Shown here: one piece after another, positions 1 to 36,905 of the stretch
How positions within the stretch are numbered: the first letter of the stretch is position 1
Layout: the number at the start of each line of letters is the position of its first letter
Origin: an uncultured Holophagales bacterium
Lineage (GTDB): Bacteria; Acidobacteriota; Thermoanaerobaculia; Multivoradales; UBA5704
Length of the DNA: 64,000 nucleotides
Direction: 5' to 3'
NCBI GenBank assembly: GCA_963842525.1
Contig: CAWJGT010000023.1
Span: 64,001-128,000, forward strand
The notes under the pieces: model-generated
Database searches by the model: none
Seen by the model: only the letters and a program-made list of their open reading frames with translations
What the model was told of the DNA's origin: nothing
Program-made: the position numbers and the translations under genes

Positions 1-2313
1 GAGGCGGACGGCCGGCGCGAGGAGGCCCTGGCCTGCTACCGGCAGGCCCTCGCCGCCAACTTCGGCGATCCGGGGTACGCCCTCTCCCTGGGGCTGGCCC
101 TGGACGAGATGTCGAGCCCCGCGGCCCTCCCCCACCTGGAAGTCGCAGCACAGGACGGCTTGGGCGGACCCGAGGTCGTGCGAAGGATCGTCCTTCTGCG
201 CTTCCGCCAGGGCGACCGGGACGGGGCCTGGCGCTGGCTCGAATGGCTCCAGAAAGCCGGAGCCCTGCCGGACTCTCTGGCGCGGCTGCGCGCCCGCGAG
301 CTCGCCACCGAGGCCACCGAAGCCTTCAACGCCGGCCGCTATCCCGACGCCGCCAGGCTCTGGGACGAGGTGAGGACCGCCTGGCCGGACAATCCCCGGG
401 TCGCCGAAAACCTTTCCAAATCTCTGCTCTGCGACGCTGCCGTCCGCCTCAAGCAAGGCGAGCTGGACGGCCTGTGGGACCAGATCGACCGTGCACACCA
501 GCTTGCCGAAAGCTTCGAGTCCCGCCTCCTCCTGGCGATCTCGCTCCTCGTGCGGGGCGACCTGTCCGCAGCCCGGGAGCGGCTGGAGACGCTCGCCGCG
601 GAGCACCCGGAGCACCCGGCCGTTGCGGTCTTCTGCGCCCTCGCCGCCTGTTTCAGCGCCGCAGGGTCCGCCGAAGAGGAGTTGCAGAGCCTCTCCTCCC
701 TGGCCGGCGAGCTCGTCCCGGCTCCCCTGCTCGCCTTCCTGAAGATCCAGCTCGCGGCCCGCCGCGGCGACTTCGAGGCCGCCGCGCAAGCCGTGGACGT
801 CTGGGTCGAGGACCCGGAGCCCGTACGCGCCTTGGGCCTTCCACGTTCTCAGGTGAACCTGCTGGTCGCCCACTGCAAGCTCCGCGGCACACGCAGCAGG
901 AGGCAGCGGGTCGTGCGGTCCCTGGAGGAGCTGACCGCCCGGTACGGCGGGGGCTACTGGGATCTGGGACTGGCCCTGGCCCAGCATCACCTCGCCACCG
1001 CCGCCGGCCTCGCCCGCGCCGGAGAGGCAGATCCAGCCGCGCTGGCGGCCTGTGACGCGGCCTACCGGGCATTTTTGAAAACTGCGTCTGCCGACGAGCG
1101 CGGGCCGGCCCAAAGGAGCCATGCGGAGCTGCTCCAGTTCCTCGCCTGCCATCACCTGCAGCGCGGCGATCTCGGCGCCGCCCTGGAGGCCCTGGAGCGC
1201 CTGAAAGAGCTCGGCGCCGACGCACCCCGTGCGACCGAAAAGCTGCGCAAGGCTCTGACGGCGCGGATGAAGCGTCCCTCCCATGCCAAGGCCTTCTCCC
1301 TTCTCGCGCGAGATCCGGACGGCGCCCGCACCACCTGGAAATCCCTGCTGAAGGAGAACCCGAACGATCTCATCGCGCTCCATCATCTCGCCTGCCTGGC
1401 CTGGTCGCACGCCTGGGACGAGGTGGTCGAAGAGCATTACGAGGCCTCTCTCCCCTACTGGCGCGAAGGGCTGGAGCACTACCGGCAGCTCTACTCCCGC
1501 GACGACTTCTGGGACGGCCTCCGGCAGAAAGGCCAAGCCCTCGGCCAGATGGCAGCCCATCCGTTCCACGAAAAAACCTTCGACGAATGGCGCGCCGCGG
1601 CCCTCTACGAGCTCGCGCACACCCTGATCGACCTGATCTTCCACGTCCTGACCGGCTTCGACTTCGGCAAGCGGCAGACGGCCGTCGATCCGCGCATCCT
1701 AATGGCCCGTTCGCTCATGGAGGTCCTCCTCGACTCCAAGCTCGACGCCGCGCTCAAGGACCGGCTCTCCGAAAGCCTGGCCGACCACTACCTCGATCCG
1801 GACCCCACCCGCCTGTCCAACTTCGACGCCTCCACCCACCGCGCCGAGGTCGTGATCGATATCGACCCGGCGAGCCTCAAGGCGCGATCGTTCCTCCTCC
1901 GCGCCACTGTCCACCAGATCGACACGCAGCGCAAAGAGGGTGTCCGCAACTTCTCGCGCATGGCCAAACAGCTCGACGCCCTCAAGCTGCACGCCGAGTG
2001 GCTGGCGCAGCGGTTGAAAGAGCTGCCGGAAGACCGCGGGCGGCGCATCCGCATGGATCTCACCGGTTATTACGAACAGCTTGGTTGGGTCAAGCATGAC
2101 GAGGGCGACGAGGAAATCCGAAAGCTCAAGAGCCTGGCTGCGGGGCAGCCCCAGCAGGCCAGGGCCGCGCTGCGGCGGCTTCGCGAATGTTTCCAGGAAT
2201 CGGATGCCGCCCTACGGAAGTCCCTTTCCTTCGATGCGCTCAATCCCCACGCGCAGGAGGCCCTGGAGTACCACCGCGGCTGGTACGAGCAGATCGACCA
2301 AGTCCTGACCTGA
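1..2313 (+). CDS. Large TPR/alpha-helical repeat protein, 5' end outside the window
   Basis: The frame of ORF 109..2313 is open from base 1 (EADGRREEALACYRQALAANFGDPGYALSLGLALDE is TPR-like). Further TPR-like units: AFNAGRYPDAARLWDEV..PDNPRVAENL, LLVRGDLSAARERLE, HLQRGDLGAALEALE. Confidence 0.8.
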   Translation, partial: EADGRREEALACYRQALAANFGDPGYALSLGLALDEMSSPAALPHLEVAAQDGLGGPEVVRRIVLLRFRQGDRDGAWRWLEWLQKAGALPDSLARLRARELATEATEAFNAGRYPDAARLWDEVRTAWPDNPRVAENLSKSLLCDAAVRLKQGELDGLWDQIDRAHQLAESFESRLLLAISLLVRGDLSAARERLETLAAEHPEHPAVAVFCALAACFSAAGSAEEELQSLSSLAGELVPAPLLAFLKIQLAARRGDFEAAAQAVDVWVEDPEPVRALGLPRSQVNLLVAHCKLRGTRSRRQRVVRSLEELTARYGGGYWDLGLALAQHHLATAAGLARAGEADPAALAACDAAYRAFLKTASADERGPAQRSHAELLQFLACHHLQRGDLGAALEALERLKELGADAPRATEKLRKALTARMKRPSHAKAFSLLARDPDGARTTWKSLLKENPNDLIALHHLACLAWSHAWDEVVEEHYEASLPYWREGLEHYRQLYSRDDFWDGLRQKGQALGQMAAHPFHEKTFDEWRAAALYELAHTLIDLIFHVLTGFDFGKRQTAVDPRILMARSLMEVLLDSKLDAALKDRLSESLADHYLDPDPTRLSNFDASTHRAEVVIDIDPASLKARSFLLRATVHQIDTQRKEGVRNFSRMAKQLDALKLHAEWLAQRLKELPEDRGRRIRMDLTGYYEQLGWVKHDEGDEEIRKLKSLAAGQPQQARAALRRLRECFQESDAALRKSLSFDALNPHAQEALEYHRGWYEQIDQVLT

Positions 2314-2326
2314 CGGGAGACAAACC

Positions 2327-2818
2327 ATGGGACGGATCGACCCGAACAGGAATCCTTGCCGGCACAACATCTTCGATGCCTATGCGATCGACAAATCGGA
2401 GATCGACATCAAGGTCATCCGCGGGGCCTCTCTGAAAGCGAGGGACCAGCTCAAGTTCGGGAAGATCGTAGCGCGGGACGGCGCCGAGCTGCAGTTGACC
2501 GAAGCCGAACTCAACGAGATGGACAAGGTTCTCTTTGATCCCGTGGCGCGGCTCAAGTCTGAGCAATTCGTCCATCAGGCGCATTCCTTCTCTCAGGACG
2601 AAGAGCTAACGGTCTTGGTGCGCCAACTGGAGGAGGCGCGCGATCCCTTACCGGACCTCCTCGCCAAGATCCAGGCGAGGACACTCGCCACCCTCGTGCG
2701 GCAGGTGCTGCCGCAACCCGTACCGCAGCCGCTCGCGGACGACCTGACGCCGGTTGAGCTTGAGCCGCTTGATCTGCAGCTCGAATCGTTGCGGGATGCC
2801 ATTCTGCGGGACCGTTAG
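2327..2818 (+). CDS. Small protein with degenerate J-domain-like fold (no HPD motif)
   Basis: RBS-like GGGAGA upstream. NPCRHNIFDAYAIDKSEIDIKVIRGA...AELNEMDKVLFDPVARL resembles J-domain helices (EINEAYEVLSDPEKR). It sits in an operon with Hsp70 and GrpE homologues. Confidence 0.55.
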   Translation: MGRIDPNRNPCRHNIFDAYAIDKSEIDIKVIRGASLKARDQLKFGKIVARDGAELQLTEAELNEMDKVLFDPVARLKSEQFVHQAHSFSQDEELTVLVRQLEEARDPLPDLLAKIQARTLATLVRQVLPQPVPQPLADDLTPVELEPLDLQLESLRDAILRDR

Positions 2819-2840
2819 TTAGTGCTTCGGCGAACCAGGA

Positions 2841-4505
2841 GTGCAGACCGTGGCGAACTATACTACTGATCTCAAGTATCTTCTGGAGGAGTGTACATAC
2901 ACATCTGGCGTCCAGCAGCACGAGGCCAGTGTGTATTACCAGGAATCTCTTAGAGAGGATTCCCTACCGTTCCTAGCAATCGGCCACATGGACAGCAGGA
3001 ATCTGCGCGAAATTCTCCGGCATCTCACAGGATGGCTCCGGTTCAGAATCGTTCTCCAAGCGCTCAGCAATGTCTGTGAAACTCTCGAATATGCACACCG
3101 CAACGGCATTGCCCACGGCGCGATCGCCCTAGAAAAGATCACCTTCTCTCAACGAACCCGGCGATTCAGACTCGCCTTCGCGTCTCCTTCTCCGCTTCTG
3201 TCTGATGACAATATAGGAATCACTGCCGCAGAGCACATGGGAAGAGCAGTTCAGAAGGACCTCTCGGACTTGGAGGCCATCTTCGCGAACCTTCTTTCCG
3301 GAGTACGGGTGCCTTGGCTTGAGAAGATCCTGCTCAACTGCCGAAATCGACGCTTCACGAATGCCACCGGACTCTTCCGGGCGATTGTTCATCGGGAGCC
3401 CGAAAGAGCTCTTCTCATCGTTTTGTCGGCTCACTATAACGCCGACGCTCAGATTATCCACTACGACCTCGACATCGGAGGCTCAAGATCCCCCGAGATA
3501 CTCGACTTGGGAGTCAACCACAAAACGATCAGCGATCTCTGTGCACGCTGGGACCATATCGGCGAGCTCGCGCTACAACGTGCAAATAGAAAACGCGATT
3601 GCGCTCTAGTAGTCAACGGCAACCAAGGGATTCAAGAGTTAGTTAAGGAGGTTTCCGAGGACGCCACGCATTTCGTTCTTGGTGCCAAGGTGCAGAGAGG
3701 GCTCGAGAGGTATCCGCAAGCAGCCCTGTGGATCATGTATGATCCGCGCCTTTCTGCGATCCCTTGGGAGCTGCTGGAAATCAGCGGCGCTCGTTTCTGC
3801 CAGCAATTCCATGTGGCACGCTCGCCGCGGGTGGCCGCCCGCGTGCTCCATCCCGGGCTGCAGGCGGAAAACAAAATTCGCCTGCTGTTCATCGAAGACC
3901 CAGATGGCAATCTTGAAGGCGCACGAAAGGAGTGCCAACGCCTAAGAGCGGGGCTCGAATCCTCTCCCTTTGCCGACCGTATAGATATTTGGACCGTTAA
4001 TCGACGCGATGACTCACTTGCAATTCGTGGCCGAATGTTGCGCAGCGACATCATCCACTTCGCCGGACATGGCCTCTTCCATAAAAAATACACAGAAGAC
4101 AGCGGCCTGAGCCTCGGCGGCGGCGATATTTTTCCCGCGAGCCAGCTCAAGGATTTTTGGAGGTACGGAGCCCCATCTTTGGTTTTCGCGAATGCTTGTG
4201 GTTCAGGGCGGACCAACAAACAGATATCCCGGCATCGGGTCTACAGCGATGCCGCGACCGGTCTGGGTCAAGCGTTCCTCGCTGCCGGCGTCGCCAACTA
4301 TGTGGGAACCCTTTGGAATGCTCCGGACGGCGACGCCACGATTGACTTTGCGGTCGAGTTCTACCTCTGGTTCCTCTCTGGATGCACGGTGAGTCTGGCT
4401 ATTCACGAGGCGCGGAACCACTGCATCAAAAAATACGGCGAAGACGACCTCACCTGGGCTCGCTACGTCCTCTTTGGGCACCCCCTGAGTCGCATTGAGA
4501 TTTGA
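2841..4505 (+). CDS. Pseudokinase-like N-terminus fused to CHAT (caspase-like, clan CD) protease
   Basis: LEYAHRNGIAHGAIALEKITF resembles the kinase catalytic-loop region with HRD lost. CHAT motifs LSAIPWELL, IIHFAGHG (His), LVFANACGSG (Cys), GLGQAFLAAGV..YVGTLW, WARYVLFGHP. GTG start after a CAGGA RBS-like site. Confidence 0.85.
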   Translation: MQTVANYTTDLKYLLEECTYTSGVQQHEASVYYQESLREDSLPFLAIGHMDSRNLREILRHLTGWLRFRIVLQALSNVCETLEYAHRNGIAHGAIALEKITFSQRTRRFRLAFASPSPLLSDDNIGITAAEHMGRAVQKDLSDLEAIFANLLSGVRVPWLEKILLNCRNRRFTNATGLFRAIVHREPERALLIVLSAHYNADAQIIHYDLDIGGSRSPEILDLGVNHKTISDLCARWDHIGELALQRANRKRDCALVVNGNQGIQELVKEVSEDATHFVLGAKVQRGLERYPQAALWIMYDPRLSAIPWELLEISGARFCQQFHVARSPRVAARVLHPGLQAENKIRLLFIEDPDGNLEGARKECQRLRAGLESSPFADRIDIWTVNRRDDSLAIRGRMLRSDIIHFAGHGLFHKKYTEDSGLSLGGGDIFPASQLKDFWRYGAPSLVFANACGSGRTNKQISRHRVYSDAATGLGQAFLAAGVANYVGTLWNAPDGDATIDFAVEFYLWFLSGCTVSLAIHEARNHCIKKYGEDDLTWARYVLFGHPLSRIEI

Positions 4506-4514
4506 GGAAAGACC

Positions 4515-5074
4515 ATGAGCACCGAGACGATCCCCATTCCCGGCTTCCTGCCCACCCCCCTGGCCACTACGCCCCGCGAGCTCCAGGGGCTCGCGCTGGA
4601 GCTCTATCGGCACCTGGCGGACAACGCCCGCCGGCTGGAGGAATGCGAGCGGAAAGCGAAGGACGAGCTCGCCTCGCAAGCGCGAGAGCATGACCGGATG
4701 ATCGCGCGCCTGGCCGCGGAACGCTTCGAATTCCAGCGGCTTCTGGATCGCGTGCTGCCCCAGATCGAGCAGGGCGAGCTCCTCCGGACCTGGCCACGGC
4801 GCTGACCCTGCAAGCCCGGAGCTGGGACGCAGAGCTTGCGCGGGCGCGGATCGAGGTGATCGATCTCGCCGGGCAGATCCTTACCGATGCGCTCGCCGAA
4901 AAGGTTGAGGTCGAGAGCGCAATCCCGGATCCGGATGTGAATGAGACAGTAGTGCGAAAAACGCTGACGCCGCTCGTCCTGCACGAGGGCCGGGTGGTAG
5001 GCGTGGCCAAAGTGATCACGTCAGTCCCCTTGCCGCGCAGCAAGGAACAAGAGCTGAAGGAGGGCTCGTTGTGA
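4515..5074 (+). CDS. GrpE-like nucleotide exchange factor, interrupted by a frameshift near 4780
   Basis: 4515..4805 encodes a coiled coil. The frame of 4856..5074 is open from about 4784: PDLATALTLQARSWDAELARARIEVIDLAGQ...ETVVRKTLTPLVLHEGRVVGVAKVITS, a GrpE beta-head pattern. The stop overlaps the Hsp70 start (GTGA). Confidence 0.7.
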
Positions 5075-7740: not shown

Positions 7741-7766
7741 GACGCGGGCCGAAGGAGACACATACC

Positions 7767-10268
7767 ATGAAAAGCTGCGGCATCGACCTGGGCACGACCA
7801 ACAGTTGCATCTTCGTCGTGGAGGGCGAGGGCAACCGCCTCATCAGCGACGATCAGGGGAATTCGATCTTCCCTTCCGCCGTCTATATCAGCCGCAACGG
7901 CATGCGGAGCGTGGGGGTGACGGCGCGCAACCGCATGGGCGAGCAGCCGCCGCCGGTGGTCGCGGTCAAGCGGAAGATGGGCTCGACCGAGACGGTCACC
8001 CTGGGTGGCAAGGAATGGACTCCGGTCGAGGTTTCGGCGGCGATCCTCTCCTTCCTCAAGGAACTGGCCGAAACGCAGACCGGCGCGGTGATCGACCGGG
8101 CCGTGGTGACGGTGCCGGCCTATTTCAATCACATCCAGCGGCAGCAGACGGACGAGGCCGGCAAGGCGGCGGGGTTCCGCAAATTGGTCACCCTGCTGGA
8201 GCCGGTCGCCGCCGCCCTGGCCTATTCCCTGGCCAGCGAGCGCGACACGCTGCGGGTGTTCGTCTATGACCTGGGCGGCGGGACCTTCGACGCCACGCTG
8301 CTGGAAAAGGACCCGCAAGGCGGCATCAGCGTCCTGGCGTTCGGCGGCGATCCCTTCCTGGGCGGCGAGGACGTGGACGCCCGGCTCGCCCGCGTGCTCC
8401 TCCAGAAGCTGACCGAGCGGGGCTATCGCCTGGAGCTCGACCTCGGGCACCCGGAAGATGCAAGCCGCTTCCAGCGCCTGAAGTTCTACGCCGAGCTGGC
8501 GAAAAAGGAGCTGTCCGAAAAAGAGGAAGCCAGCCTCGTCCGCCAGGGACTGTTCGAGGACCAGAAGGGTGAGACCGTCGATCTGGACCTCACCGTCACC
8601 CGGCACGAGCTCGAAGCCTGCGCCGAAGACCTGATCCAGCGCAGCATCGACGAGTCCCTGGCGACCCTTGAAAAAGGGGGCGTGCCGCTCTCTTCGCTCG
8701 ACGAGGTCATCCTGGTGGGAGGTATGTCCCGCATGCCGCTGGTGCAGCGCAGGGTCGCCGAGGCTTTTCAAAAGCAGCCCCGGCTGGTGGACCCGGACCT
8801 GATCGTCGCCCGCGGCGCCGCTCTCAAGGCGGCGGAGGTGTTCGGCGAGCAGGCCGTCGCAGGCTCCGGGCTGCGCCTGGAGCTGCACTATGACCGCAAC
8901 ACCGAGCAGGACCGCGTGCGGATCGGCGGCCTGCTCGACCGGCCGCTCTCCGGCCACACCATCTTTCTCCTCGGCGGCCCGGACGAGCTCGTTCAGCCGA
9001 TCGAAGGCACGGACCGCTTCAGCTTCGAGAACGTGCTCCTGGCCCCGGACGCGGAAAACGTTTTCACACTCTCGATCGAAGACGCCCGGGAAAACCTTGT
9101 CCTGGAGCACGAGGTCAGGATCGTCCACAGCGCCTCGGCCCGCCGCATCCTGCGCTCGCCGGGCTCGGTGGTGACGAAACCGATCGCAGTCTGGACGGTC
9201 GACGGCCGCCAGGTGCTGCTGTCGGAGAATACGGCGCTCCCCCACAGCGTGTCCCACACGTTCGAGACGGCCGACCAGGGAGGCCGGATCGTCGTGCCCA
9301 TCTGGGAAGGCAACCACGAGGTCACCCGCATGGAGATCGAAGACATCCCCCGCGACCTCAAGGTCGGCACGCACGTCGTGGTGAGCGTTCAGATTCATTC
9401 CGACTACCGGATCGAGGCCGTGGCCACGGTGCCCGAGATCGAACGCTCGGTGCAGATCGACTTCCGCATCGAGCCGGTGGACACCGCGAAGATCACACCG
9501 GACTTCGTGCGCCGCGAGCTCGCCGCCCTCGAAGAGCAGGCGCGCGCTGCTGAAGCGGAATGCCCCGGCGAAAGAGCGCGCGACATGTTCCGGGTGCAAC
9601 TCACCTCGCTCAAAGACCAGATCGACAAGGAGCTCGAGGAGCCCGAGCCCCAACGGAGCCGGCTCCACGAGAAGCTGAGCGAGATGCGTGCGCTGATCGC
9701 ATCCCTGCCGAAGAAGGACGCGGGCGCTCCGCTCGATCCCGCCTTTGAGGAATTCAGCAGCCGGTTGGCGGACGTTCTGAGCACAGCCATCGAAAATGAG
9801 CATCCCAATCTGCCGCAGGTCCGGCCGCAGATCGAGGCGCTGCGGGAGCGGGCAAAAGAGGTCTGGAAGAGCCGGGATGCCATTGCCTGGCGCCGCGTCC
9901 AGGAGCAGCTCGGGGCCATCGCCAGGAAACTCATGCCGGAGATGAGCCCGGAAGAGAGGGCCCTCCACATGGCGGCATGGTTGATCGTCGACCAGCTCCC
10001 GAGCCTCGAAGCGGCCTCCGGAGGGGCTCTGGCGTCACAGGTCCAGGCGATCCGGAGCGAGATCGAAGAGGTCTTCCTCTCGCTCCAGCTCCTGGGAATG
10101 GACCCGCAGGAGGCGATCCAGAAGCTCCTGACTCTCTATCGGGAAAGCATCCAGCCCCTGCGGCGGAAGCTGGGCCTGGACGCGACCGCCGAGGTCGGAA
10201 TGGCCGATCCCTCGGCTTTGAAAGGTTTTGTACGCGGACGCAAGCCGGCCCTGGAGGGAAGGGCGTGA
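7767..10268 (+). CDS. Divergent Hsp70-family protein B (about 833 aa)
   Basis: ATG at 7767 after GAAGGAG RBS. CGIDLGTTNSC, TVPAYFNHIQRQQT, LEPVAAA, YDLGGGTFD, AELAKKELS, VILVGGMSRMP. Collinear paralogue of 5071..7740. Confidence 0.95.
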   Translation: MKSCGIDLGTTNSCIFVVEGEGNRLISDDQGNSIFPSAVYISRNGMRSVGVTARNRMGEQPPPVVAVKRKMGSTETVTLGGKEWTPVEVSAAILSFLKELAETQTGAVIDRAVVTVPAYFNHIQRQQTDEAGKAAGFRKLVTLLEPVAAALAYSLASERDTLRVFVYDLGGGTFDATLLEKDPQGGISVLAFGGDPFLGGEDVDARLARVLLQKLTERGYRLELDLGHPEDASRFQRLKFYAELAKKELSEKEEASLVRQGLFEDQKGETVDLDLTVTRHELEACAEDLIQRSIDESLATLEKGGVPLSSLDEVILVGGMSRMPLVQRRVAEAFQKQPRLVDPDLIVARGAALKAAEVFGEQAVAGSGLRLELHYDRNTEQDRVRIGGLLDRPLSGHTIFLLGGPDELVQPIEGTDRFSFENVLLAPDAENVFTLSIEDARENLVLEHEVRIVHSASARRILRSPGSVVTKPIAVWTVDGRQVLLSENTALPHSVSHTFETADQGGRIVVPIWEGNHEVTRMEIEDIPRDLKVGTHVVVSVQIHSDYRIEAVATVPEIERSVQIDFRIEPVDTAKITPDFVRRELAALEEQARAAEAECPGERARDMFRVQLTSLKDQIDKELEEPEPQRSRLHEKLSEMRALIASLPKKDAGAPLDPAFEEFSSRLADVLSTAIENEHPNLPQVRPQIEALRERAKEVWKSRDAIAWRRVQEQLGAIARKLMPEMSPEERALHMAAWLIVDQLPSLEAASGGALASQVQAIRSEIEEVFLSLQLLGMDPQEAIQKLLTLYRESIQPLRRKLGLDATAEVGMADPSALKGFVRGRKPALEGRA

Positions 10269-10291
10269 CGTTCCGCAAGGAGGGTTGAGCG

Positions 10292-10651
10292 ATGCCTGCA
10301 TGCCCCTACGGTCCACACCGGCTCGTCCTCGACGAGCGCCTGTGCTGCCGCCATTGCGGCGAGGATCTCCGGCTCTACGCCGCTCTGCGCGATCTGCCGG
10401 TGAGCCTCTACAACGAGGCCCGCCGCCTGTGGGAGGAGGCCGCGCTCGTGGAGGCTGCGGCATGGCTCCACGCCGCCCTGGAGCTGCGGGAAGACTTTCC
10501 GGAGGCGCACTGGCTCCTCGCCGCGGTCGAGGCCCGGCAGGGCCGGCCGGAGAGCGCCAGGAGCCGGCTGGTCCGCGCGCGCGCGCTCGGAGCCGAAATC
10601 GATCCGGACTGGATCCCGCTCCCTCTACCCGAGGAGGTCGAGACCTCATGA
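10292..10651 (+). CDS. Small zinc-ribbon plus TPR protein
   Basis: RBS AAGGAGG. CPYGPH...CCRHCGEDL (putative Zn ligands), then LYNEARRLWEE..AALELREDFPEAHWLLAAVEARQGRPESA (TPR). The stop overlaps the next ATG. Confidence 0.75.
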   Translation: MPACPYGPHRLVLDERLCCRHCGEDLRLYAALRDLPVSLYNEARRLWEEAALVEAAAWLHAALELREDFPEAHWLLAAVEARQGRPESARSRLVRARALGAEIDPDWIPLPLPEEVETS

Positions 10652-12373
10652 GCGTTCTCCTGGAGCCGAAAGCAGCACTGCGCGAATTGATCGTCGGAGC
10701 GGTCGACCGTCTCGACCCGTCCGGCATGGGGAACACCGCGCCAGGAGAAATCCGGCTCCTTCCAGAGCCTGCGGCCAGCACGCTCTCGATCGTGGACAGC
10801 GGCGCCGGCCTGTCCCTGGCGGAGGTGGAGGACCTGCTCGGCAATGCAGGCTCGGATACGGAAGGCTTCTGGGCCGGCCTGCTCGCCTGCCGGCGGCTCT
10901 GCTCCCGCCTGGAGGTCCTGACGCGGGCTTGCGACAGCGGAACCCGCATTCTCTTGACGGAGGACGGCGAGATCCGGATCGGCGCCGCCGAGATCGAGAG
11001 CCCGGGGACCGCAGTGCACCTCCAGCTCTGCCGGGAGCATTCCAGCCTCCTGACCGACGATCTGCTGACGCGACTGATCAAGAAATCCTGCGATTTCGTC
11101 CGCGTCCCCATCTATCTCGGCCGGGGCTGGGATCCGGTCAACCTCATGGACGCGCCCTGGTACCGTGAGATCCCGGACCTTCAGCTCAAGGGAGAGTTGG
11201 ATAGAACCCTTCAGATCCGCACGCTTGCCGCCTTCCCCTTCCAGATCTCCGACAATGCCGGCCCGCGCCTCCGCGGCACCCTCTACATCCGCTCCTGGCG
11301 GCATTCGGCCACTCTGCGCCTCTACTGCCGTCGCGTCTTCGTGGCTGCGGCCGAGGCCGACCTTCTGGGACCGGGGCTTCGTGAGCTGGTATCCGGCGTG
11401 ATCGACGCGGATGCCCCGTCGCGGGCCGAGAGCCGGCAGCTCCTGGAGCCGCGCTCCTCCCAGGGTGCATGGCTTCAATCGGTCCTGCTGCGGATCGTTG
11501 CGCAAGGATTTCTCGGGTTGGCCCGGCAGCGGAGAAAGCAGCTCCAGCAGCTCATGGACGATCACGGTCCGTCCATCAAGGCGGCCTGCCTGGCCTTCCC
11601 TGAAGAGCTGGGTGAGCTGCGCAACCACCTGCCCTACCGCACATCTCTGCGGGACGCCGCCACCCTCCCCGAAATCCTGGAGGGGCGGCCGGAGCGGACG
11701 GTCATCTACGCCGACGACTTCGACATCGCGGCCCCTCTGGTCCCGCTCTACCGCCGGACCAACACCGAGGTCGTTTACATGACGGCGCCGGCCGACGAAA
11801 GGCTCCGGGCGCAGTGGTCGATCGAAAGAGACGGGATCATGTTCCGGCGGGCCGATCTGGAGCCGCCGCTCCCTCCCGCGACCGGTGAGGAAGGTGCGCT
11901 CGCGGGGCGTCTCGAGCACCTGTTCCAAACCTCGATCGATCCCGGGCTCGCCGTCGAGCTCCGCGCACTCAGCCCTGACGCACCGCCCGCGATCCTCTCG
12001 ATATCCGACGAGGGCCGCCGGAAGCTGGAGATGCTCGCGGCGATCCGTTCCCGCCAGCAGCAGGGCCGCACCAACGAGCTGCCGCCGGAGACTCCGGCAT
12101 CTCGCCGAATCGGGAGCACTGGATACGACAACCATCCCCCAGAGGCTCATCCTCAACAGCTCCCATGGGATTGTGGCGCAATGCATCGCTGCCCTCGACG
12201 GGGCCGAGCTTCCTGACGACGGTCCCACGCTCCTTTTCGCCCGCTTCCTGCATGCGCAGGCCCTGCTCTCCGCCGGCTTACACCTCCCCCGCTCGCGAAT
12301 TGCGGAGCTGTCCCGCGCCATGACTGAATTGACGACCAACCTGCTGCCTCAGACCGAAAGGAGTGGAGCATGA
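10648..12373 (+). CDS. Degenerate Hsp90/HtpG-like protein (likely pseudo-ATPase), frameshift near 12091
   Basis: ATG 10648 with GAGGAGG RBS. ALRELIVGAVD (N-box Asn to Gly), LSIVDSGAG, PGTAVHLQL, LIKKSCDFVRVPIY, VNLMDAPW, LRLYCRRVFV. The +1 frame supplies the HtpG C-terminus RLILNSSHGIV and ends overlapping the next ATG. Confidence 0.8.
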
Positions 12374-15072
12374 CGCTCAATACAGCGCAGATGGAATCCA
12401 GGTCGATCAACATCAACCTCAAGACGATTCTCCCGTCGCTGGCCAAGAACCTCTACGGCGACGACTGGCGGATCACCATCCGGGAGCTTTTGCAGAACTG
12501 TCACGATGCCATTGCGGAGCGTGCCTTTTGCAATCCCGGCGAGACCGAGGCGGCAAGAATCGACATCTTCCCCGATCCCACGCCCGGCATCTATACCCTG
12601 ACATTCAGGGACAATGGCATCGGCATGACCCTGCAGGAGGTGGAGGACAATCTGGCCACCGTGGGCGGTGATCACAAGAGCACAAAGATCGAGAAGCTTG
12701 CCCAGGCTGGTACGGCAGACCGCTCCGTGCTCGCGCAGCTCATCGGCCAGTACGGGATCGGCTTTCTCTCCTGCTTCATCATTGCGGATTCTGTCGAGGT
12801 GGTGACCCGGAGCCAGGCCGAAACATCGACCGGTGTGCGGGCCGTGTTCACCGGAGAAACCCGTTGGTTTTACAGTGACGAACCCAACGCAGCTCCCGGC
12901 ACCCAGATCACCTTACACCTGAAACGGAACGAAGCGATCCGCGATCCGGCGACGGGCAGGGAGATCCCTTTGCAGGAGCTTCTCAACTTCGAGCGGCTGA
13001 AGCAGGAGGTGCGGCGTTTCGGCGATCTCCTGCCCTATCCGGTCTACGTCCACCGCAGCCCGATGGACATCGCCGGTGATCTCTGCAACACCATGAAGGC
13101 GCCGTGGGAAAACCAGGCACAAGCGAGGGACGAGCTCCTGCGGTTCCTCCGGGACCGCCATCCCGGCGAGAACGAGCCCATATCGCCGATCGCCTTCAAC
13201 CTCGACCGCAACAAGGACAAAGTCAGTGCACAGGGTGTTTTCTATTTTCCCCGTACAGGGCAGGAAGCGAGCCGCTCGTCCGAATCCGTCGCCCAGGTCG
13301 AGCTTTTCTGCCGGCGGATGTTCATCACCCAGGACATCCCGGCCCTCCTGCCAACGTGGGCCAGCTTCGTCTGCGTCGTGGTCGAGTGCCCAGACATCGT
13401 TCCGACATTGAACCGCAACGACGTGATCCGCCACGGCAACGCCTTTGTAGAGCTCAAACATGCCCTGGGCCGCCACATCATCGAAAGCCTGCAGGTCCTG
13501 GCACAGCGCTACCCGAAAGACTTCGCTGATATCCAAGTGGAGCACCGCGAGCGCCTCTACCGCGGCTTCCTCTCCGACTTCAAGAGCACGCCCTCGAGGG
13601 AGGAGCATTTCTTCCGGACGCTCATCGACTACATACCCTTCACGGTTATCGACCGCACGAAGCCGGCTGGCGAGTCCATGACCCTGCGCAGATACCGCGA
13701 CGAATCAAGGAAGCGTAACACCCTGGCGAAGCCAAACGAGCCCACTCGGGATCAGATTTATTATCTGGATGCCTCCGAGGCAACGGGGCAATACAAGGCG
13801 ATGATCATGCAGCGCGACATCCCGGTGATCCTGGCGAATCATCCGGCGGAGCCCAGCCTCCTGCACGCCTACGGTTCTGCCTTCGGAAGCGAGGTCGAGG
13901 TGGAAGATGCGCGGGCGATCCTCAACCTGTACGTGGAGCCGGTCGAGCAGGCGCCTTACGAGGCCATGAAGCAGTTCCTCGCCAGCCTGGATGGCGGCGG
14001 GCCGGACGAGGTGAGCGCATCTCGTTTCGAGCCGAGCTACGTGCCGGCCATCCTGATCGTCAGCTCGGCGAGCTCCCCGGAGAGGGCCGAGGCGCTCGAA
14101 AGGCTTCTGCGGGAAGGAGCCCCCGTCCTCACGGGCAAGGTCCGCAGGATGATGGAAGACGAGATCATGGGCTCACGGACCGGCCGCGCCACGGTCAGCG
14201 CGGTGCTGAACGACAACAATCCGGTTGTGAAAAAAATACGGGACTATTGTGCGGAAGGAAAGCCCCTGACCGGGATCGTCGCCGATGTTCTCCACGAGAT
14301 CTATCATCTCGCCAGGGCATACAGCGACCGGGCCGCGGCGGAAAGCCCACATTTCTACGAGCACAGAAACATCCTTCTGGCCAGACTGCTGGAGACCGAG
14401 CAACAACTTGTCACGGTGCAGAGCGAGCGGGACCTGCTCGTGCTTGAGAAGCGCAAGTCTTTGGAGCCCCCCACTCGTATGGAGGCCCGAACCTGCGCGA
14501 TGCTCCTCACCGACCTGCGCGGTTCCTCCCGGATGGTGGGTTTCCTCGACAGCCTCCAGAGCGCGGAGATCCTGCAACAGTACGCCGGCGATGTCCAGGC
14601 GATCGTGGAAAAGCTCGGTGGAAAGATCGAGAAGTTCACCGGCGACGGCGTCTTCGCCCATTTCGCGCTGGATGGAGCAACCACTAAGGAGGTCATCGAA
14701 AAAGTGTCGGACTGCGCTCTCGAGATTCAGATGTTCACTAAGAAGTTCTTCTCCCGCGGCGAGGTCGCCGAGACGCTTCTCCATGCGGGCGGGATCCTGG
14801 TGGAAGGCTCCCGGACCCTTCTGCACGTGGCGCGGGTCATGTACGGCACGGTTGCCGGAGCTCCCGCCCTGGTGGGCAAGCAGGTCGTCGCCCTCTTCCG
14901 CGCCTGCGATCAGGACGAGCTCTTCGAGCAGTCCCCCATCGTGCTCTCGGAGCCCTTCCTCTTCAGTCTCAACCCCCTGCCCCAGCCGAAGCCGATCGCC
15001 ATGGACATGAAGCTCGACGCGAGCCTGCCGGGCATGAGCTTCTATCCGCACCCCAACTTCGTCCGGCCGTAG
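12370..15072 (+). CDS. Hsp90/HtpG-family ATPase fused to a C-terminal class III adenylate/guanylate cyclase domain
   Basis: LAKNLY, IRELLQNCHDA, FRDNGIGMT, LIGQYGIGFLSCF, PGTQITLHLK, LFCRRMFI, PTLNRND, AVLNDNNPVV. After a coiled coil: MLLTDLRGSS and IEKFTGDGVFAHF (both cyclase metal-binding Asp). Confidence 0.92.
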   Translation: MTLNTAQMESRSININLKTILPSLAKNLYGDDWRITIRELLQNCHDAIAERAFCNPGETEAARIDIFPDPTPGIYTLTFRDNGIGMTLQEVEDNLATVGGDHKSTKIEKLAQAGTADRSVLAQLIGQYGIGFLSCFIIADSVEVVTRSQAETSTGVRAVFTGETRWFYSDEPNAAPGTQITLHLKRNEAIRDPATGREIPLQELLNFERLKQEVRRFGDLLPYPVYVHRSPMDIAGDLCNTMKAPWENQAQARDELLRFLRDRHPGENEPISPIAFNLDRNKDKVSAQGVFYFPRTGQEASRSSESVAQVELFCRRMFITQDIPALLPTWASFVCVVVECPDIVPTLNRNDVIRHGNAFVELKHALGRHIIESLQVLAQRYPKDFADIQVEHRERLYRGFLSDFKSTPSREEHFFRTLIDYIPFTVIDRTKPAGESMTLRRYRDESRKRNTLAKPNEPTRDQIYYLDASEATGQYKAMIMQRDIPVILANHPAEPSLLHAYGSAFGSEVEVEDARAILNLYVEPVEQAPYEAMKQFLASLDGGGPDEVSASRFEPSYVPAILIVSSASSPERAEALERLLREGAPVLTGKVRRMMEDEIMGSRTGRATVSAVLNDNNPVVKKIRDYCAEGKPLTGIVADVLHEIYHLARAYSDRAAAESPHFYEHRNILLARLLETEQQLVTVQSERDLLVLEKRKSLEPPTRMEARTCAMLLTDLRGSSRMVGFLDSLQSAEILQQYAGDVQAIVEKLGGKIEKFTGDGVFAHFALDGATTKEVIEKVSDCALEIQMFTKKFFSRGEVAETLLHAGGILVEGSRTLLHVARVMYGTVAGAPALVGKQVVALFRACDQDELFEQSPIVLSEPFLFSLNPLPQPKPIAMDMKLDASLPGMSFYPHPNFVRP

Positions 15073-15074
15073 AG

Positions 15075-15135
15075 CCCTCACCCCCTGTCCCCCTCTCCCA
15101 TCTCCCACCCGCCCTATCCCCGGGAGAGGGGGGAC
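15075..15135. repeat. REP-like intergenic palindrome
   Basis: CCCTCACCCCCTGTCCCCCTCTCCC...GGGAGAGGGGGGAC. The arms 15087-15099 and 15122-15135 pair with one extra G. It lies just after the operon stop. Confidence 0.6.
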
Positions 15136-15242
15136 GTTGCTCAAGCCACAGCGGCGAGCCCGCGCGAAAGGGACCATCTTGGAAGGCATGCCGGCATGGC
15201 TCTGTTAGAGTCTCCGGACTGAACGACCATGGAGAGCCACGC

Positions 15243-36863: not shown

Positions 36864-36905
36864 CGGCCACCCCCCTCAGGAGGGCGGCGCCAAGCGTCCG
36901 GACCT

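What the first reader, a model, noticed from the sequence alone, without database searches (positions are those of the whole stretch)
1..15072. Dedicated double-Hsp70/double-Hsp90 operon wired to a CHAT protease and a nucleotide cyclase: candidate chaperone-gated signalling or defence system
Seen: nine co-oriented genes, several with overlapping stop/start codons: TPR scaffold, J-like protein, pseudokinase-CHAT, GrpE-like protein, Hsp70-A, Hsp70-B, Zn-ribbon-TPR, degenerate Hsp90, Hsp90-cyclase. Known: J, GrpE, Hsp70, TPR adaptor and Hsp90 form a complete client-maturation relay (as in eukaryotic Hsp40/Hsp70/Hop/Hsp90), while housekeeping dnaK and htpG are not arranged this way. CHAT proteases and class III cyclases are common effectors and signal generators in bacterial conflict systems. 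Inference: a private chaperone machine senses a foreign or misfolded protein (e.g. phage) or holds effectors inactive, with proteolysis and a cyclic nucleotide as outputs. I do not recognise this architecture as a named system.
Basis: partly seen in the sequence, partly recalled or inferred. Interest (0 to 1): 0.93.

Follow-up and report, generated by a model that had tools for sequence, protein, structure and literature searches.

The report
Mobile island with private chaperone machine
A 24-kb horizontally acquired island encodes a rare, conserved set of two unusual Hsp70s with their own co-chaperones, a ClpB-like unfoldase, a kinase, giant TPR scaffolds and a Zorya-like membrane motor, here extended by a CHAT protease and an Hsp90-cyclase pair; it looks like an undescribed conflict system, but its function is untested.

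Summary
Two of them (J-like, GrpE-like) could only be shown at fold or profile level.

The unit is larger than reported. The operon starts 6.7 kb upstream of the window with a ZorA-like/ZorB-like stator, a ClpB-like AAA+ protein and an active Ser/Thr kinase-TPR.

The whole ~24-kb segment, including a divergent CHAT-FGE gene, is an insertion. A same-genus genome has an empty site.

Eight metagenome loci share a core: ClpB-like, kinase-TPR, giant TPR, J-like p163, GrpE-like, Hsp70-A, Hsp70-B and Zn-knuckle-TPR. None of them carries the CHAT gene or the two Hsp90 genes, so these are add-on modules. The Hsp70/Hop/Hsp90-relay analogy is therefore not the system's core.

The core was not found in 820 related genomes, and the families are very rare. 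No described system matched in PADLOC or in five literature searches.

The nearest prior art is the Kaur/Aravind HSP70-GrpE conflict systems, Zorya, and predicted Hsp90-like defence proteins.

A defence or conflict role is plausible (about 0.5) but unproven. A mobile proteostasis island is the main rival.

The GrpE-like frameshift in this assembly is probably an indel error.

The parts
1..2313 (+). C-terminal 770 codons of a giant TPR protein (~1200 aa). The gene starts upstream at about G000:C23:62705 (window -1295). Upstream of it, in the same operon: ZorA-like C23:57312-58805, ZorB-like 58815-59420, ClpB-like 59417-61414, Ser/Thr kinase-TPR 61416-62690. A divergent CHAT-FGE gene lies at C23:55188-~57200 (- strand).
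   Evidence: Pfam TPR families. Orthologues of ~1230-1280 aa in 6 related loci. Upstream genes.
2327..2818 (+). p163: small protein with an HPD-less J-domain-like N-terminal fold and a conserved DDLPWP tail.
   Evidence: No family hit. AF2 model pLDDT 65. VIA-align Z 3.4-6.4 to many J-domains. Only 21 representatives in 1.84 billion proteins. Alignment A6.
2841..4505 (+). Degenerate kinase-like N-terminus plus a CHAT protease, with His (HFAGHG) and Cys (ANACGSG) present. Lowest G+C in the island (55.6%). Absent from related loci.
4515..5074 (+). GrpE-like nucleotide-exchange factor, split by a 1-base frameshift near 4780 in this assembly.
   Evidence: 5 intact orthologues; a soil contig with 0 mismatches has an extra C behind 4780 that restores the frame.
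5071..7740 (+). Hsp70-A (889 aa): DnaK-like ATPase domain with an insert, a substrate-binding-beta-like domain, and a long helical C-terminus.
7734..10268 (+). Hsp70-B (844 aa, or 833 from a later start): paralogue of Hsp70-A.
10292..10651 (+). Zn-knuckle (C-H-C-C) plus TPR adaptor.
10648..12216 (+). ATPase-dead Hsp90 paralogue. It may continue to 12373 in another frame; this is not verified.
12370..15072 (+). Hsp90-type GHKL ATPase fused to a C-terminal class III nucleotidyl-cyclase domain.
15066..15141 (.). REP-like palindromic repeat just after the last stop codon. The right edge of the inserted island lies at about 15195.

Best explanation
The finding is the right-hand two thirds of a ~24-kb horizontally acquired island, about G000:C23:55.19-79.20 kb (window -8.8 kb to +15.2 kb).

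Conserved core
The core is a rare multi-gene machine:
- a ClpB-NBD2-like AAA+ unfoldase;
- an active Ser/Thr kinase-TPR;
- a ~1200-aa TPR scaffold;
- an HPD-less J-like protein;
- a GrpE-like exchange factor;
- two paralogous, ATPase-competent Hsp70s;
- a Zn-knuckle-TPR adaptor.
In this genome, and probably in its nearest relatives, a MotA/MotB-type stator of the ZorA/ZorB kind precedes the core. It has 3 TM helices plus a 300-aa helical tail, and a partner with one TM helix carrying Asp plus an OmpA domain.

Add-on modules in this island
- a CHAT protease inserted between the J-like and GrpE-like genes;
- an ATPase-dead Hsp90 plus an Hsp90-cyclase pair at the 3' end;
- a divergent CHAT-FGE gene at the 5' end.

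Most likely mode of action (inferred, not shown)
It is a biological-conflict (anti-phage or anti-invader) system.
1. The peptidoglycan-anchored stator and the TPR scaffolds sense an envelope or protein perturbation.
2. The kinase and the Hsp70/NEF/J-like/ClpB-like ATPases act in one of two ways: as an ATP-driven threshold switch, or as the remodelling activity itself (unfolding of invader or effector proteins).
3. In this variant, CHAT proteolysis and a cyclic nucleotide are the outputs. The nucleotide would come from the dimerisation-dependent cyclase on the Hsp90 scaffold, possibly held off by heterodimerising with the dead paralogue.
For: Island
- In same-genus genome G766, the left flank and the M28-peptidase flank are 147 bp apart. 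In G000 they are 24,161 bp apart.
- The Hsp70-A C-terminal query found nothing in 0 of 400 (phylum sample), 0 of 400 (class sample) and 0 of 20 nearest genomes, including 5 of the same genus.

Conserved synteny
- tblastn of the operon's proteins on 8 metagenome loci gives the order ClpB-like / kinase / giant TPR / p163 / [GrpE-like] / Hsp70-A / Hsp70-B / ZnR-TPR wherever the loci reach.

Rarity
- About 49 Hsp70-A clusters among 5.8 billion proteins.
- 21 p163 representatives in 1.84 billion.
- 7 close non-self ZorA-like proteins, two of them on contigs (958,104 and 244,186 bp) that also hold Hsp70-A.

Competent enzymes
- Hsp70-A residues D7, K70, E155, D178 and T183 are invariant in 23 sequences.
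- The ClpB-like protein has Walker A, a pore-loop GLVGY and sensor-2 GAR.
- The kinase has G-loop, VALK, HRD and DFG.
- The Hsp90-cyclase GHKL motifs and both metal-binding Asp are conserved in 14 of 15 sequences.

Conflict flavour
- PADLOC ZorA at 6.9e-13 and ZorB at 2.2e-19; PycC at 9e-11.
- Neighbours of the core elsewhere are an integrase, a DUF4062-NB-ARC-TPR STAND protein, an AAA-RyR protein and ankyrin repeats.
- A CHAT-FGE gene lies inside the island and a caspase-domain gene lies just outside it.

Precedent
- HSP70+GrpE+DnaJ/TPR themes in predicted conflict systems (PMC7159879, passages read).
- HSP90- or HSP70-like NTPases as switches (preprint 10.64898/2026.10.19.760177, passage read).
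- Predicted Hsp90-like defence proteins (preprint 10.64898/2026.09.30.754977, passages read).
Against: - No experiment, and no RNA run was listed.
- The conserved core has no recognisable toxic effector. In L082 the operon simply ends after ZnR-TPR.
- The same chromosomal site in another congener holds an ordinary hybrid sensor kinase, so the site is variable but is not a defence hotspot.
- The island contains no integrase, and its edges have no direct repeats.
- None of the 8 related loci reaches far enough upstream to show a stator. The link between the ZorAB-like genes and the core rests on this genome plus two shared contig lengths.
- Long Hsp70-A contigs of 227,608, 137,058, 126,188 and 114,257 bp are not in the ZorA-like hit list.
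- The stator's ZorA scores are modest, and Pfam MotA_ExbB is below its cut-off.
- No cNMP receptor domain was seen among the island's proteins.
- The cyclase lacks the transition-state Asn, and Pfam's cyclase model does not hit it.
- The window's ClpB-like protein has Walker B Asn where 7 orthologous modules have Asp.
Confidence: 0.5

Rival explanations
1. A mobile protein-quality-control island. On this view it is a horizontally transferred set of extra chaperones (Hsp70 pair with NEF, ClpB-like disaggregase, Hsp90s) that raises tolerance to heat, desiccation or other proteotoxic stress in soil. It would resemble the transmissible heat-resistance/ClpG-ClpK islands (that comparison is recalled, not looked up).
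For: - Every conserved enzyme of the core is a chaperone or co-chaperone type.
- Among its below-cut-off ClpB/ClpV/ClpA-type hits, the ClpB-like protein matches the ClpK and ClpG models at 3e-46 and 8e-45.
- The core has no toxic effector.
- The segment is an accessory island in a soil organism.
Against: - A kinase, a 1200-aa TPR scaffold, a Zn-knuckle-TPR and a MotAB-type stator have no obvious place in bulk proteostasis.
- The J-like protein lacks HPD.
- The Hsp70s are highly divergent, on a branch of length 0.98 from DnaK.
- No small Hsp, FtsH or DegP genes are present.
- The add-on and neighbouring genes are CHAT, cyclase, STAND, RyR and ankyrin types.
Confidence: 0.2
2. Several independent systems lie side by side. 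On this view the Hsp70/ClpB-like core, the CHAT protease and the dHsp90/Hsp90-cyclase pair are separate units that merely share an island and a transcript. The 'double Hsp70/double Hsp90' combination would then have no joint mechanism.
For: - Of about 27 Hsp90-cyclase clusters, only one sits on a contig length (958,104 bp) that also appears in the Hsp70-A list.
- No Hsp90 or CHAT gene is found in the 8 related loci.
- The CHAT gene has 55.6% G+C and Hsp90-cyclase 61.6%, against 64-70% for most core genes.
- The Hsp90-cyclase family is reported from Acidobacteriota, Pirellulales and Verrucomicrobiota.
Against: - The CHAT gene is inserted inside the core operon, between the J-like and GrpE-like genes.
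- The ZnR-TPR/dHsp90 and dHsp90/Hsp90-cyclase junctions overlap by 4 bases.
- An 81%-identical relative's 958-kb contig holds Hsp70-A, an Hsp70-B-like protein, Hsp90-cyclase and ZorA-like together.
- The genomic contexts of the other Hsp90-cyclase genes could not be fetched.
Confidence: 0.4
3. An envelope, motility or secretion-associated machine. On this view a MotAB-type proton motor, together with TPR scaffolds, a kinase and dedicated Hsp70/GrpE, assembles or drives a surface structure. The comparison is to the Hsp70/GrpE pair (SglK/GrpS) needed for social motility in Myxococcus (recalled, not looked up).
For: - The stator genes are translationally close to the ClpB-like gene (4-base overlap).
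- The genome has a second GrpE-Hsp70-like pair at C3:170817-172609.
- The genome encodes at least 45 Ser/Thr kinase loci, a mark of developmentally complex bacteria.
Against: - No secretin, pilus, glycosyltransferase or export genes are in the island.
- The core was not found in any of 5 same-genus or 7 further same-family genomes, which is unlike a lineage trait.
- The stator's best matches are ZorA/ZorB models.
Confidence: 0.08

Closest known systems
GTPase-centric conflict systems with HSP70 and GrpE (GAP1-N2 and DO-GTPase/tubulin/HSP70 systems; Kaur, Burroughs, Iyer, Aravind 2020, PMC7159879; passages read)
   Same: - A dedicated Hsp70, sometimes with a second one, together with GrpE and a DnaJ- or TPR-bearing partner, in sporadically distributed operons predicted to set thresholds in conflict systems.
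- Kinases, caspase-like peptidases and FGS domains appear as associated parts.
   Different: - No GTPase or tubulin gene is present here (Pfam).
- Here the partners are a ClpB-like AAA+ protein, a giant TPR and a ZorAB-like stator.
- The J-like protein is a stand-alone HPD-less protein.
- Those systems are reported mainly from actinobacteria and firmicutes.
- I could not see that paper's supplements.
Zorya anti-phage systems, types I-III (PMC11946911 and PMC11890865; abstracts from the search listing and passages of PMC11890865)
   Same: - A MotA-like protein with 3 TM helices and a long cytoplasmic helical tail.
- A MotB-like partner with a TM Asp and a peptidoglycan-binding OmpA domain, encoded first in the operon.
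- The best PADLOC hits are ZorA and ZorB.
   Different: - None of the soluble Zorya components (ZorC/D, ZorE, ZorF/G) is matched by any island protein.
- The tail is shorter (protein of 497 aa).
- The downstream genes are chaperones, not nuclease- or helicase-type effectors.
Predicted prokaryotic Hsp90-like defence proteins and Tiamat (GHL ATPases; preprint 10.64898/2026.09.30.754977, passages read)
   Same: A GHKL/Hsp90-type ATPase clamp fused to an effector domain whose activity is thought to depend on ATP-driven dimer closure.
   Different: - Those proteins carry N-terminal HD or calcineurin-like phosphoesterases or a PD-(D/E)xK nuclease.
- Here the effector is a C-terminal class III cyclase, and it is paired with an ATPase-dead paralogue.
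- The PADLOC TmtA match is only 3.7e-6, over the ATPase motifs.
Pycsar (PycC cyclase plus cNMP-activated effector)
   Same: The C-terminal domain matches PycC models (9e-11 to 7e-7) and solved class III cyclases.
   Different: - No cNMP-binding effector was found in the island.
- The cyclase is fused to an Hsp90.
- The transition-state Asn is replaced.
Housekeeping DnaK-DnaJ-GrpE-ClpB bi-chaperone system and HtpG
   Same: - The same protein superfamilies.
- ATPase residues, a pore-loop Tyr and an exchange-factor fold are present.
   Different: - All scores are far below the NCBIfam equivalog cut-offs: DnaK 236 and 292 bits against 648, ClpB 225 against 1232, HtpG 201 against 371.
- The ClpB-like protein has only the NBD2 module.
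- The J-like protein lacks HPD.
- Canonical copies exist elsewhere in the genome.

Membership tests
Zorya (types I-III) | ZorA: MotA/ExbB-like channel protein with a long C-terminal helical tail | tested here: met
   PADLOC ZorA3 at 6.9e-13 and ZorA1 at 1e-10, covering aa 126-462. Three hydrophobic segments, then ~300 aa with no further hydrophobic segment and coiled-coil-type weak Pfam hits over aa 243-469. Pfam MotA_ExbB reaches only 20.8 bits, below its 22.9 cut-off.
Zorya (types I-III) | ZorB: MotB-like protein with a TM Asp and a peptidoglycan-binding domain | tested here: met
   PADLOC ZorB1 at 2.2e-19. Pfam OmpA at 3.4e-16. One TM segment with the FTDVL Asp.
Zorya (types I-III) | Type-specific soluble components (ZorC+ZorD, ZorE, or ZorF+ZorG) | tested here: not met
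   No PADLOC Zor model other than ZorA/ZorB hit any of the 14 + strand operon translations scanned (the five upstream proteins, and the window genes with the GrpE-like gene as two fragments); the divergent CHAT-FGE gene was not scanned.
DnaK (Hsp70 equivalog) | Score above the NCBIfam DnaK cut-off and placement in the DnaK clade | tested here: not met
   236 and 292 bits against a cut-off of 648. In the quick tree, A and B sit in a 33-row clade (support 98), on a 0.98 branch apart from the DnaK clade that holds both of the genome's own DnaKs (the careful search was not finished).
Hsp70 superfamily | Actin-fold ATPase domain with the catalytic Asp/Lys/Glu/Asp/Thr residues | tested here: met
   Pfam HSP70 at 1.7e-64 and 3.8e-84. 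D7, K70, E155, D178 and T183 are invariant in 23 Hsp70-A sequences. Aligned to DnaK NBD and SBD-beta.
GrpE | Match to the GrpE family model (PF01025) | tested here: not met
   No Pfam hit for the window fragments or for the intact orthologue L085:7746-8309. A six-frame PF01025 search of the genome finds two other loci but not this one.
GrpE | GrpE fold: long N-terminal helix, short helix, C-terminal beta domain | tested here: inconclusive
   AF2 model pLDDT 70, with H28-94, H98-117 and strands at 120-171. The Foldseek top 7 of 45 rows are GrpE/GrpEL1, best E 0.01 and probability 0.90-0.93, with none at E <= 1e-3. hhalign against 20 GrpE gives probability 50% and E 1.6e-4 in the correct register.
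J-domain (DnaJ/Hsp40) | HPD tripeptide between helices II and III | tested here: not met
   No HPD in any of the 19 aligned family members; a conserved R-D/N-G loop stands there instead.
J-domain (DnaJ/Hsp40) | Four-helix J fold | tested here: inconclusive
   VIA-align against 48,161 chains: at least 18 of the top 31 rows are J-domains (DNAJB8 Z 6.4, HscB 6.1, dnj-2 5.8, Ydj1 5.3 and others), over model residues ~5-86. The Z values are middling and the model pLDDT is 65. In Foldseek, J-domains appear only at ranks 6 and 32 with E > 1. An Atlas cluster in which 39% of members carry DnaJ is at rank 18, score 0.83.
ClpB | Two AAA+ modules with a middle (M) domain | tested here: not met
   Only Clp_N, one AAA_2 and D2-small. 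The NCBIfam ClpB match covers profile positions 554-831 only, 225 bits against a cut-off of 1232.
Hsp90/HtpG | GHKL motifs (E..N..D, DxGxG, GQFGxGF) and the middle-domain catalytic loop | tested here: met
   Met for Hsp90-cyclase: E39, N43, D46, D81, G83, G85, GQYGIGF and LNRN are invariant or nearly so in 15 sequences. The HtpG profile is covered at 2-609 of 614, but at 201 bits against a cut-off of 371. Not met for the upstream paralogue, where the Asn is replaced by Gly; it is still an Hsp90 homologue at 2.6e-24.
Class III nucleotidyl cyclase | Two metal-binding Asp; transition-state Asn and Arg; family model match | tested here: inconclusive
   Both Asp (TDLRGS, FTGDG) are present in 14 of 15 sequences and the Arg is kept. 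The Asn is replaced by Val. There is no Pfam hit, including to PF00211, even at E <= 1. 17 of 17 PDB hits are class III cyclases, best 1.1e-5. PADLOC PycC at 9e-11.
Pycsar | Adjacent effector with a cNMP-binding domain | tested here: not met
   No cNMP-binding, TIR or TM effector was found by Pfam or PADLOC among the island proteins.
CHAT peptidase | CHAT domain model above cut-off, with the His/Cys dyad | tested here: met
   87.8 bits against a cut-off of 24. HFAGHG and ANACGSG are read directly from the sequence; the motif assignment is from recall.
Kaur 2020 GTPase-centric HSP70 systems | GAP1-N2 or DO-type TRAFAC GTPase as the central component | tested here: not met
   No GTPase or tubulin family was reported for any island protein. 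Only Pfam was used, so divergent GTPases could be missed.

The most novel reading that the evidence does not exclude
This is an immune system whose weapon or trigger is protein unfolding. A Zorya-like, peptidoglycan-anchored proton motor detects phage entry. Through TPR scaffolds and a kinase, it switches on a private Hsp70-pair/NEF/J-like/ClpB-like machine that captures and dismantles invader proteins, or releases caged effectors. Lineages bolt on outputs such as a CHAT protease and an Hsp90-clamped cyclase that makes a second messenger. That would be a fourth, chaperone-based kind of Zorya, and the first defence system built on a complete Hsp70 cycle.
Probability: 0.15. Interest if true: 0.9.

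Novelty: new variant of a known kind. Interest (0 to 1): 0.72.

Why it matters
If it is a conflict system, it would show a complete Hsp70 cycle recruited as a dedicated module outside housekeeping proteostasis. That cycle comprises two Hsp70s, an exchange factor and a J-like partner, together with a ClpB-type unfoldase. It would be coupled to a Zorya-type membrane sensor and have swappable outputs.

That bears on three open questions:
- how ZorAB-like stators signal to different effectors;
- whether chaperone ATPases can replace STAND NTPases as immune switches, as comparative genomics has proposed;
- how an Hsp90 clamp could gate a dimerisation-dependent cyclase.

If it turns out to be a mobile proteostasis island instead, it would still be a new kind of transferable stress-tolerance module in soil bacteria.

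Tried and rejected
- Genome-contig scan with the full Hsp70-A alignment. The tool chose generic Hsp70 motifs and returned 80 housekeeping dnaK loci (Bacillota and others).
- Extending the metagenome loci upstream. The records are not held, so it stays unknown whether the 8 related loci have a stator.
- The listing of cluster members on 10 homologues. Only one name came back (Acidobacteriota); no context.
- PDB sequence-profile searches with the GrpE-like and p163 alignments. Nothing meaningful.
- Complex prediction of Hsp70-A residues 1-660 with p163. No verdict (score 0.00), so it is no evidence either way.
- The look-up of sequencing runs. No RNA holder was listed. The only holders are three soil metagenomes with 6-24% of the words.
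- The part of dHsp90 around 12,075-12,095 was not shown to be covered.
- Test of the suspected dHsp90 frameshift. The alternative frame 11885-12373 gives no NCBIfam hit and no BLAST similarity to Hsp90-cyclase. The idea that the gene runs on to 12373 rests only on the ATGA overlap and a recalled Hsp90 C-terminal motif, so it is left open.
- Plasmid collection, tblastn with the Hsp70-A C-terminus. No match. The phage collection was not searched.
- CoCoNuT systems (PMC11090510). Their Hsp70-like CnuD is tied to McrBC, which is absent here. Rejected.
- A distant Hsp90-like gene in G176 lies next to two integrases, a TPR protein and a deformylase-SEC-C fusion. It has 26-29% identity and no cyclase, so it was not used as context for the Hsp90-cyclase family.
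- The same insertion site in G764 holds a sensor kinase. The 'defence hotspot' idea for the site was dropped.
- Literature searches that found no description of this architecture. Paper supplements were closed and may list such neighbourhoods.
- The look-up of encoding contigs was not called (closed).

Full report
**What is in the window**

Domain searches confirm these calls:
- TPR repeats (1-2313).
- A CHAT peptidase (2841-4505; 87.8 bits against a cut-off of 24).
- Two Hsp70s (5071-7740 and 7734-10268; Pfam HSP70 1.7e-64 and 3.8e-84).
- A TPR mini-protein (10292-10651).
- Two Hsp90-related proteins (10648-12216 and 12370-15072).

NCBIfam gives HtpG at 3.8e-59 over the whole profile for the last gene and 2.6e-24 for the one before it. 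DnaK scores 236 and 292 bits for the Hsp70s. All of these are far below the equivalog cut-offs.

The last 230 residues of the final gene hit only class III adenylate/guanylate cyclases among solved structures (17 of 17 rows, best 1.1e-5). They also hit PADLOC PycC models (9e-11). Pfam's own cyclase model does not hit.

**The two small 'co-chaperones'**

Neither gives any family hit, so I tested them at profile and fold level.

*GrpE-like*
- Five intact orthologues of 176-210 aa align with the window's two fragments.
- A profile of these five against 20 canonical GrpE proteins from related genomes gives hhalign E 1.6e-4, probability 50%, in the right register.
- The AlphaFold model (pLDDT 70) has the long helix, short helix and beta domain.
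- Its seven best Foldseek rows are all GrpE or GrpEL1. None reaches E 1e-3.

*p163*
- The model is weak (pLDDT 65), and Foldseek is uninformative.
- An exhaustive structural alignment against 48,161 chains puts J-domains in at least 18 of the top 31 rows, at Z 3.7-6.4 over residues ~5-86.
- The family has no HPD (0 of 19 sequences).
- I therefore call it an HPD-less J-like protein, with moderate confidence.

**Active sites**
- In Hsp70-A, the DnaK-type catalytic residues are invariant in 23 sequences. A substrate-binding-beta-like segment aligns to DnaK.
- The Hsp90-cyclase keeps the GHKL motifs, the Hsp90 catalytic loop and both cyclase metal-binding Asp in 14 of 15 family members. It lacks the transition-state Asn.
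- The upstream Hsp90 paralogue has Gly in place of the Mg-binding Asn. It shares 25% identity with its neighbour.
- The CHAT protein has the His and Cys motifs. Its N-terminus is only a remnant of a kinase C-lobe (Pfam E 0.003, below cut-off; PADLOC 6e-7).
- The mini-TPR protein has an invariant C-H-C-C knuckle.

**The unit is bigger than the finding**

The window is G000:C23:64001-128000. Upstream, in the same orientation and with gaps of -4 to +13 bases, lie four more genes and then the start of the giant TPR gene:
- A 497-aa MotA/ExbB-type protein with three hydrophobic segments and a ~300-aa helical tail (PADLOC ZorA 6.9e-13).
- A 201-aa MotB-type protein with a TM Asp and an OmpA domain (ZorB 2.2e-19).
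- A 665-aa protein with Clp_N repeats and a single ClpB-NBD2-like AAA+ module. It has Walker A, a pore-loop GLVGY and sensor-2 GAR.
- A 424-aa Ser/Thr kinase-TPR with all catalytic motifs.

Divergently upstream is an 801-aa CHAT plus FGE-sulfatase protein.

**It is an inserted island**
- In the same-genus genome G766, the left flank (C23:53125-55105) and the right flank (M28 peptidase, C23:79267-80914) are 147 bp apart. In G000 they are 24,161 bp apart.
- Reading the junctions places the edges near C23:55,186 and 79,195, without direct repeats.
- Two other congeners carry 1.6 kb and 4.2 kb of unrelated DNA at the site. One of these is a hybrid sensor kinase.
- The Hsp70-A C-terminal region was not found in 0 of 400 phylum-sample genomes, 0 of 400 class-sample genomes and 0 of 20 nearest genomes, five of the same genus.
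- The genome has its own dnaK (two copies), grpE and htpG elsewhere.
- In a quick tree, Hsp70-A (13 rows, support 100) and Hsp70-B (13 rows, support 99) are sister clades on a long branch away from DnaK (the careful search did not finish).

**Conserved core and variable parts**

Hsp70-A has about 49 full-length orthologue clusters among 5.8 billion proteins. Hsp70-B orthologues lie on the same contigs. The few named ones are Blastocatellia and Thermoanaerobaculia.

A metagenome scan with a C-terminal alignment returned 8 loci. tblastn of all operon proteins against them shows, wherever the loci reach:
- ClpB-like. In three loci this is at least three tandem AAA modules in one frame.
- Kinase-TPR.
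- Giant TPR.
- p163.
- GrpE-like.
- Hsp70-A.
- Hsp70-B.
- Zn-knuckle-TPR.

In all 6 loci that cover the p163 to Hsp70-A interval, p163 is followed directly by the GrpE-like gene, so there is no CHAT gene. None of the 7 loci that reach the Zn-knuckle-TPR gene has an Hsp90 match. Only L082 and L085 extend more than 2 kb beyond it.

What follows the core in other loci:
- An integrase on the other strand (L082).
- An AAA-RyR protein and a DUF4062-NB-ARC-TPR STAND protein (L085).
- An ankyrin protein (L089).

The Hsp90-cyclase fusion has its own family of about 27 clusters, with named members from Acidobacteriota, Pirellulales and Verrucomicrobiota. Only one of their contig lengths (958,104 bp) recurs in the Hsp70-A list.

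The ZorA-like protein has 7 close non-self homologues. Two lie on contigs (958,104 and 244,186 bp) that also hold Hsp70-A. Several other long Hsp70-A contigs are not in that list, and none of the 8 loci reaches far enough upstream. The stator's membership in the core is therefore shown only for the nearest clade.

p163 has just 21 representatives in 1.84 billion proteins.

The CHAT gene has the lowest G+C of the island, 55.6% against a genome mean of 67.8%. This fits a late insertion.

**Assembly quality**

The GrpE-like frameshift sits at about 4780. A soil-metagenome contig that matches the window over 4686-5027 with no mismatch has one extra C behind 4780, which restores a single frame. Its depth is only 2.4. 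Because five orthologues are intact, I take the window's break to be an indel error or a strain variant.

A suspected second frame change near 12,075-12,095 in the dead Hsp90 could not be confirmed.

The window's ClpB-like Walker B reads FNEAEK, where 7 orthologous modules read FDEAEK.

**Interpretation**

*Shown*
- A rare, conserved, horizontally mobile operon.
- It encodes a complete but non-canonical Hsp70 cycle: two Hsp70s, an exchange-factor fold and an HPD-less J-like fold.
- It also encodes a ClpB-type unfoldase module, an active kinase and large TPR scaffolds.
- In this lineage a ZorAB-like stator precedes it.
- Add-on CHAT and Hsp90-cyclase modules are present.

*Inferred*
- It is a conflict system in which the stator and scaffolds sense, the ATPases set a threshold or remodel proteins, and protease and cyclase are lineage-specific outputs.
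- The class III cyclase needs to dimerise. The ATPase-dead paralogue could therefore act as an inhibitory heterodimer partner on the Hsp90 clamp. This is a hypothesis only.

*Against*
- The core has no evident toxic effector.
- No cNMP receptor was found.
- No integrase lies in the island.
- There are no expression or phenotype data.

The main rival is a transferable proteostasis island. A further possibility is that the Hsp90 pair and the CHAT protease work independently of the core.

**Comparison with the literature**
- PADLOC names no system.
- Five full-text searches found no description of this architecture.
- Kaur et al. 2020 (PMC7159879, passages) describe GTPase-centred conflict systems that include HSP70, GrpE, a second HSP70 and DnaJ- or TPR-bearing partners. 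They also describe FGS and caspase-like effector domains. Those systems hinge on GTPases, which are absent here.
- Zorya types I-III share only the ZorAB-like pair (PMC11946911 and PMC11890865 abstracts; PMC11890865 passages).
- CoCoNuT Hsp70-like proteins are McrBC-linked (PMC11090510).
- Two 2026 preprints state that HSP90- or HSP70-like NTPases can stand in for STAND NTPases, and that Hsp90-like proteins with fused effectors are predicted defence proteins (passages).
- The concept therefore has precedent. This gene set does not, as far as I could search.

**Verdict**

I rate it a new variant of a known kind (chaperone/NTPase-gated conflict systems), of high but unproven interest.

Noticed in passing
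window 15066-15141; also L001 ~3605-3772: A REP-like palindromic element (CCCTCTCCC...GGGAGAGGG type) with very many copies in all five same-genus genomes. It sits right after the Hsp90-cyclase stop codon, at the island's right edge. A similar hairpin lies at the empty site in G766.
   Followed up: partly
window 38729-63952 (- strand): A hybrid PKS/NRPS gene cluster with proteins of 2768, 593, 1346, 357 and 3014 aa. AT-KR-DH-ACP-C-A and C-A-MT-PCP domains were seen in the two proteins scanned.
   Followed up: partly
window 17029-19218 (- strand): A 729-aa protein with a caspase (Peptidase_C14) domain just outside the island. Together with the two CHAT genes, that makes three caspase-fold peptidases within 30 kb.
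   Followed up: no
window 34896-38741 (- strand): A RibBA-like fusion (DHBP synthase plus GTP cyclohydrolase II, 655 aa) next to a 611-aa WD40 propeller protein, directly upstream of the PKS/NRPS genes.
   Followed up: no
G000:C3:170817-172609: A second non-housekeeping pair in the same genome: a short GrpE-family gene directly upstream of an ~849-aa-frame Hsp70-like gene. It is unrelated in sequence to the island's pair.
   Followed up: no
G000:C6:133951-135225: The genome's canonical htpG match contains an in-frame TGA. This may be another assembly indel or error, like the one in the GrpE-like gene.
   Followed up: no
L092 (G176:C28:36001-56000) 5992-15593: In a same-order genome, a distant 932-aa Hsp90-like gene is followed by a TPR protein and a peptide-deformylase/methyltransferase/SEC-C fusion, next to two phage-type integrases. 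The region has 58% G+C.
   Followed up: partly
L085 14408-20407: Downstream of the core in one metagenome locus: a 956-aa P-loop (MoxR/torsin-like, weak) protein ending in a RyR domain, and a 1028-aa DUF4062-NB-ARC-TPR STAND protein.
   Followed up: no
L084, L086, L088, first ~2.3 kb: In three related loci the ClpB-like gene is a single frame with at least three tandem NBD2-like AAA+ modules, instead of Clp_N repeats plus one module.
   Followed up: partly
G000 whole genome: tblastn with the island's kinase finds at least 45 further Ser/Thr kinase loci in the 9.95-Mb genome.
   Followed up: no
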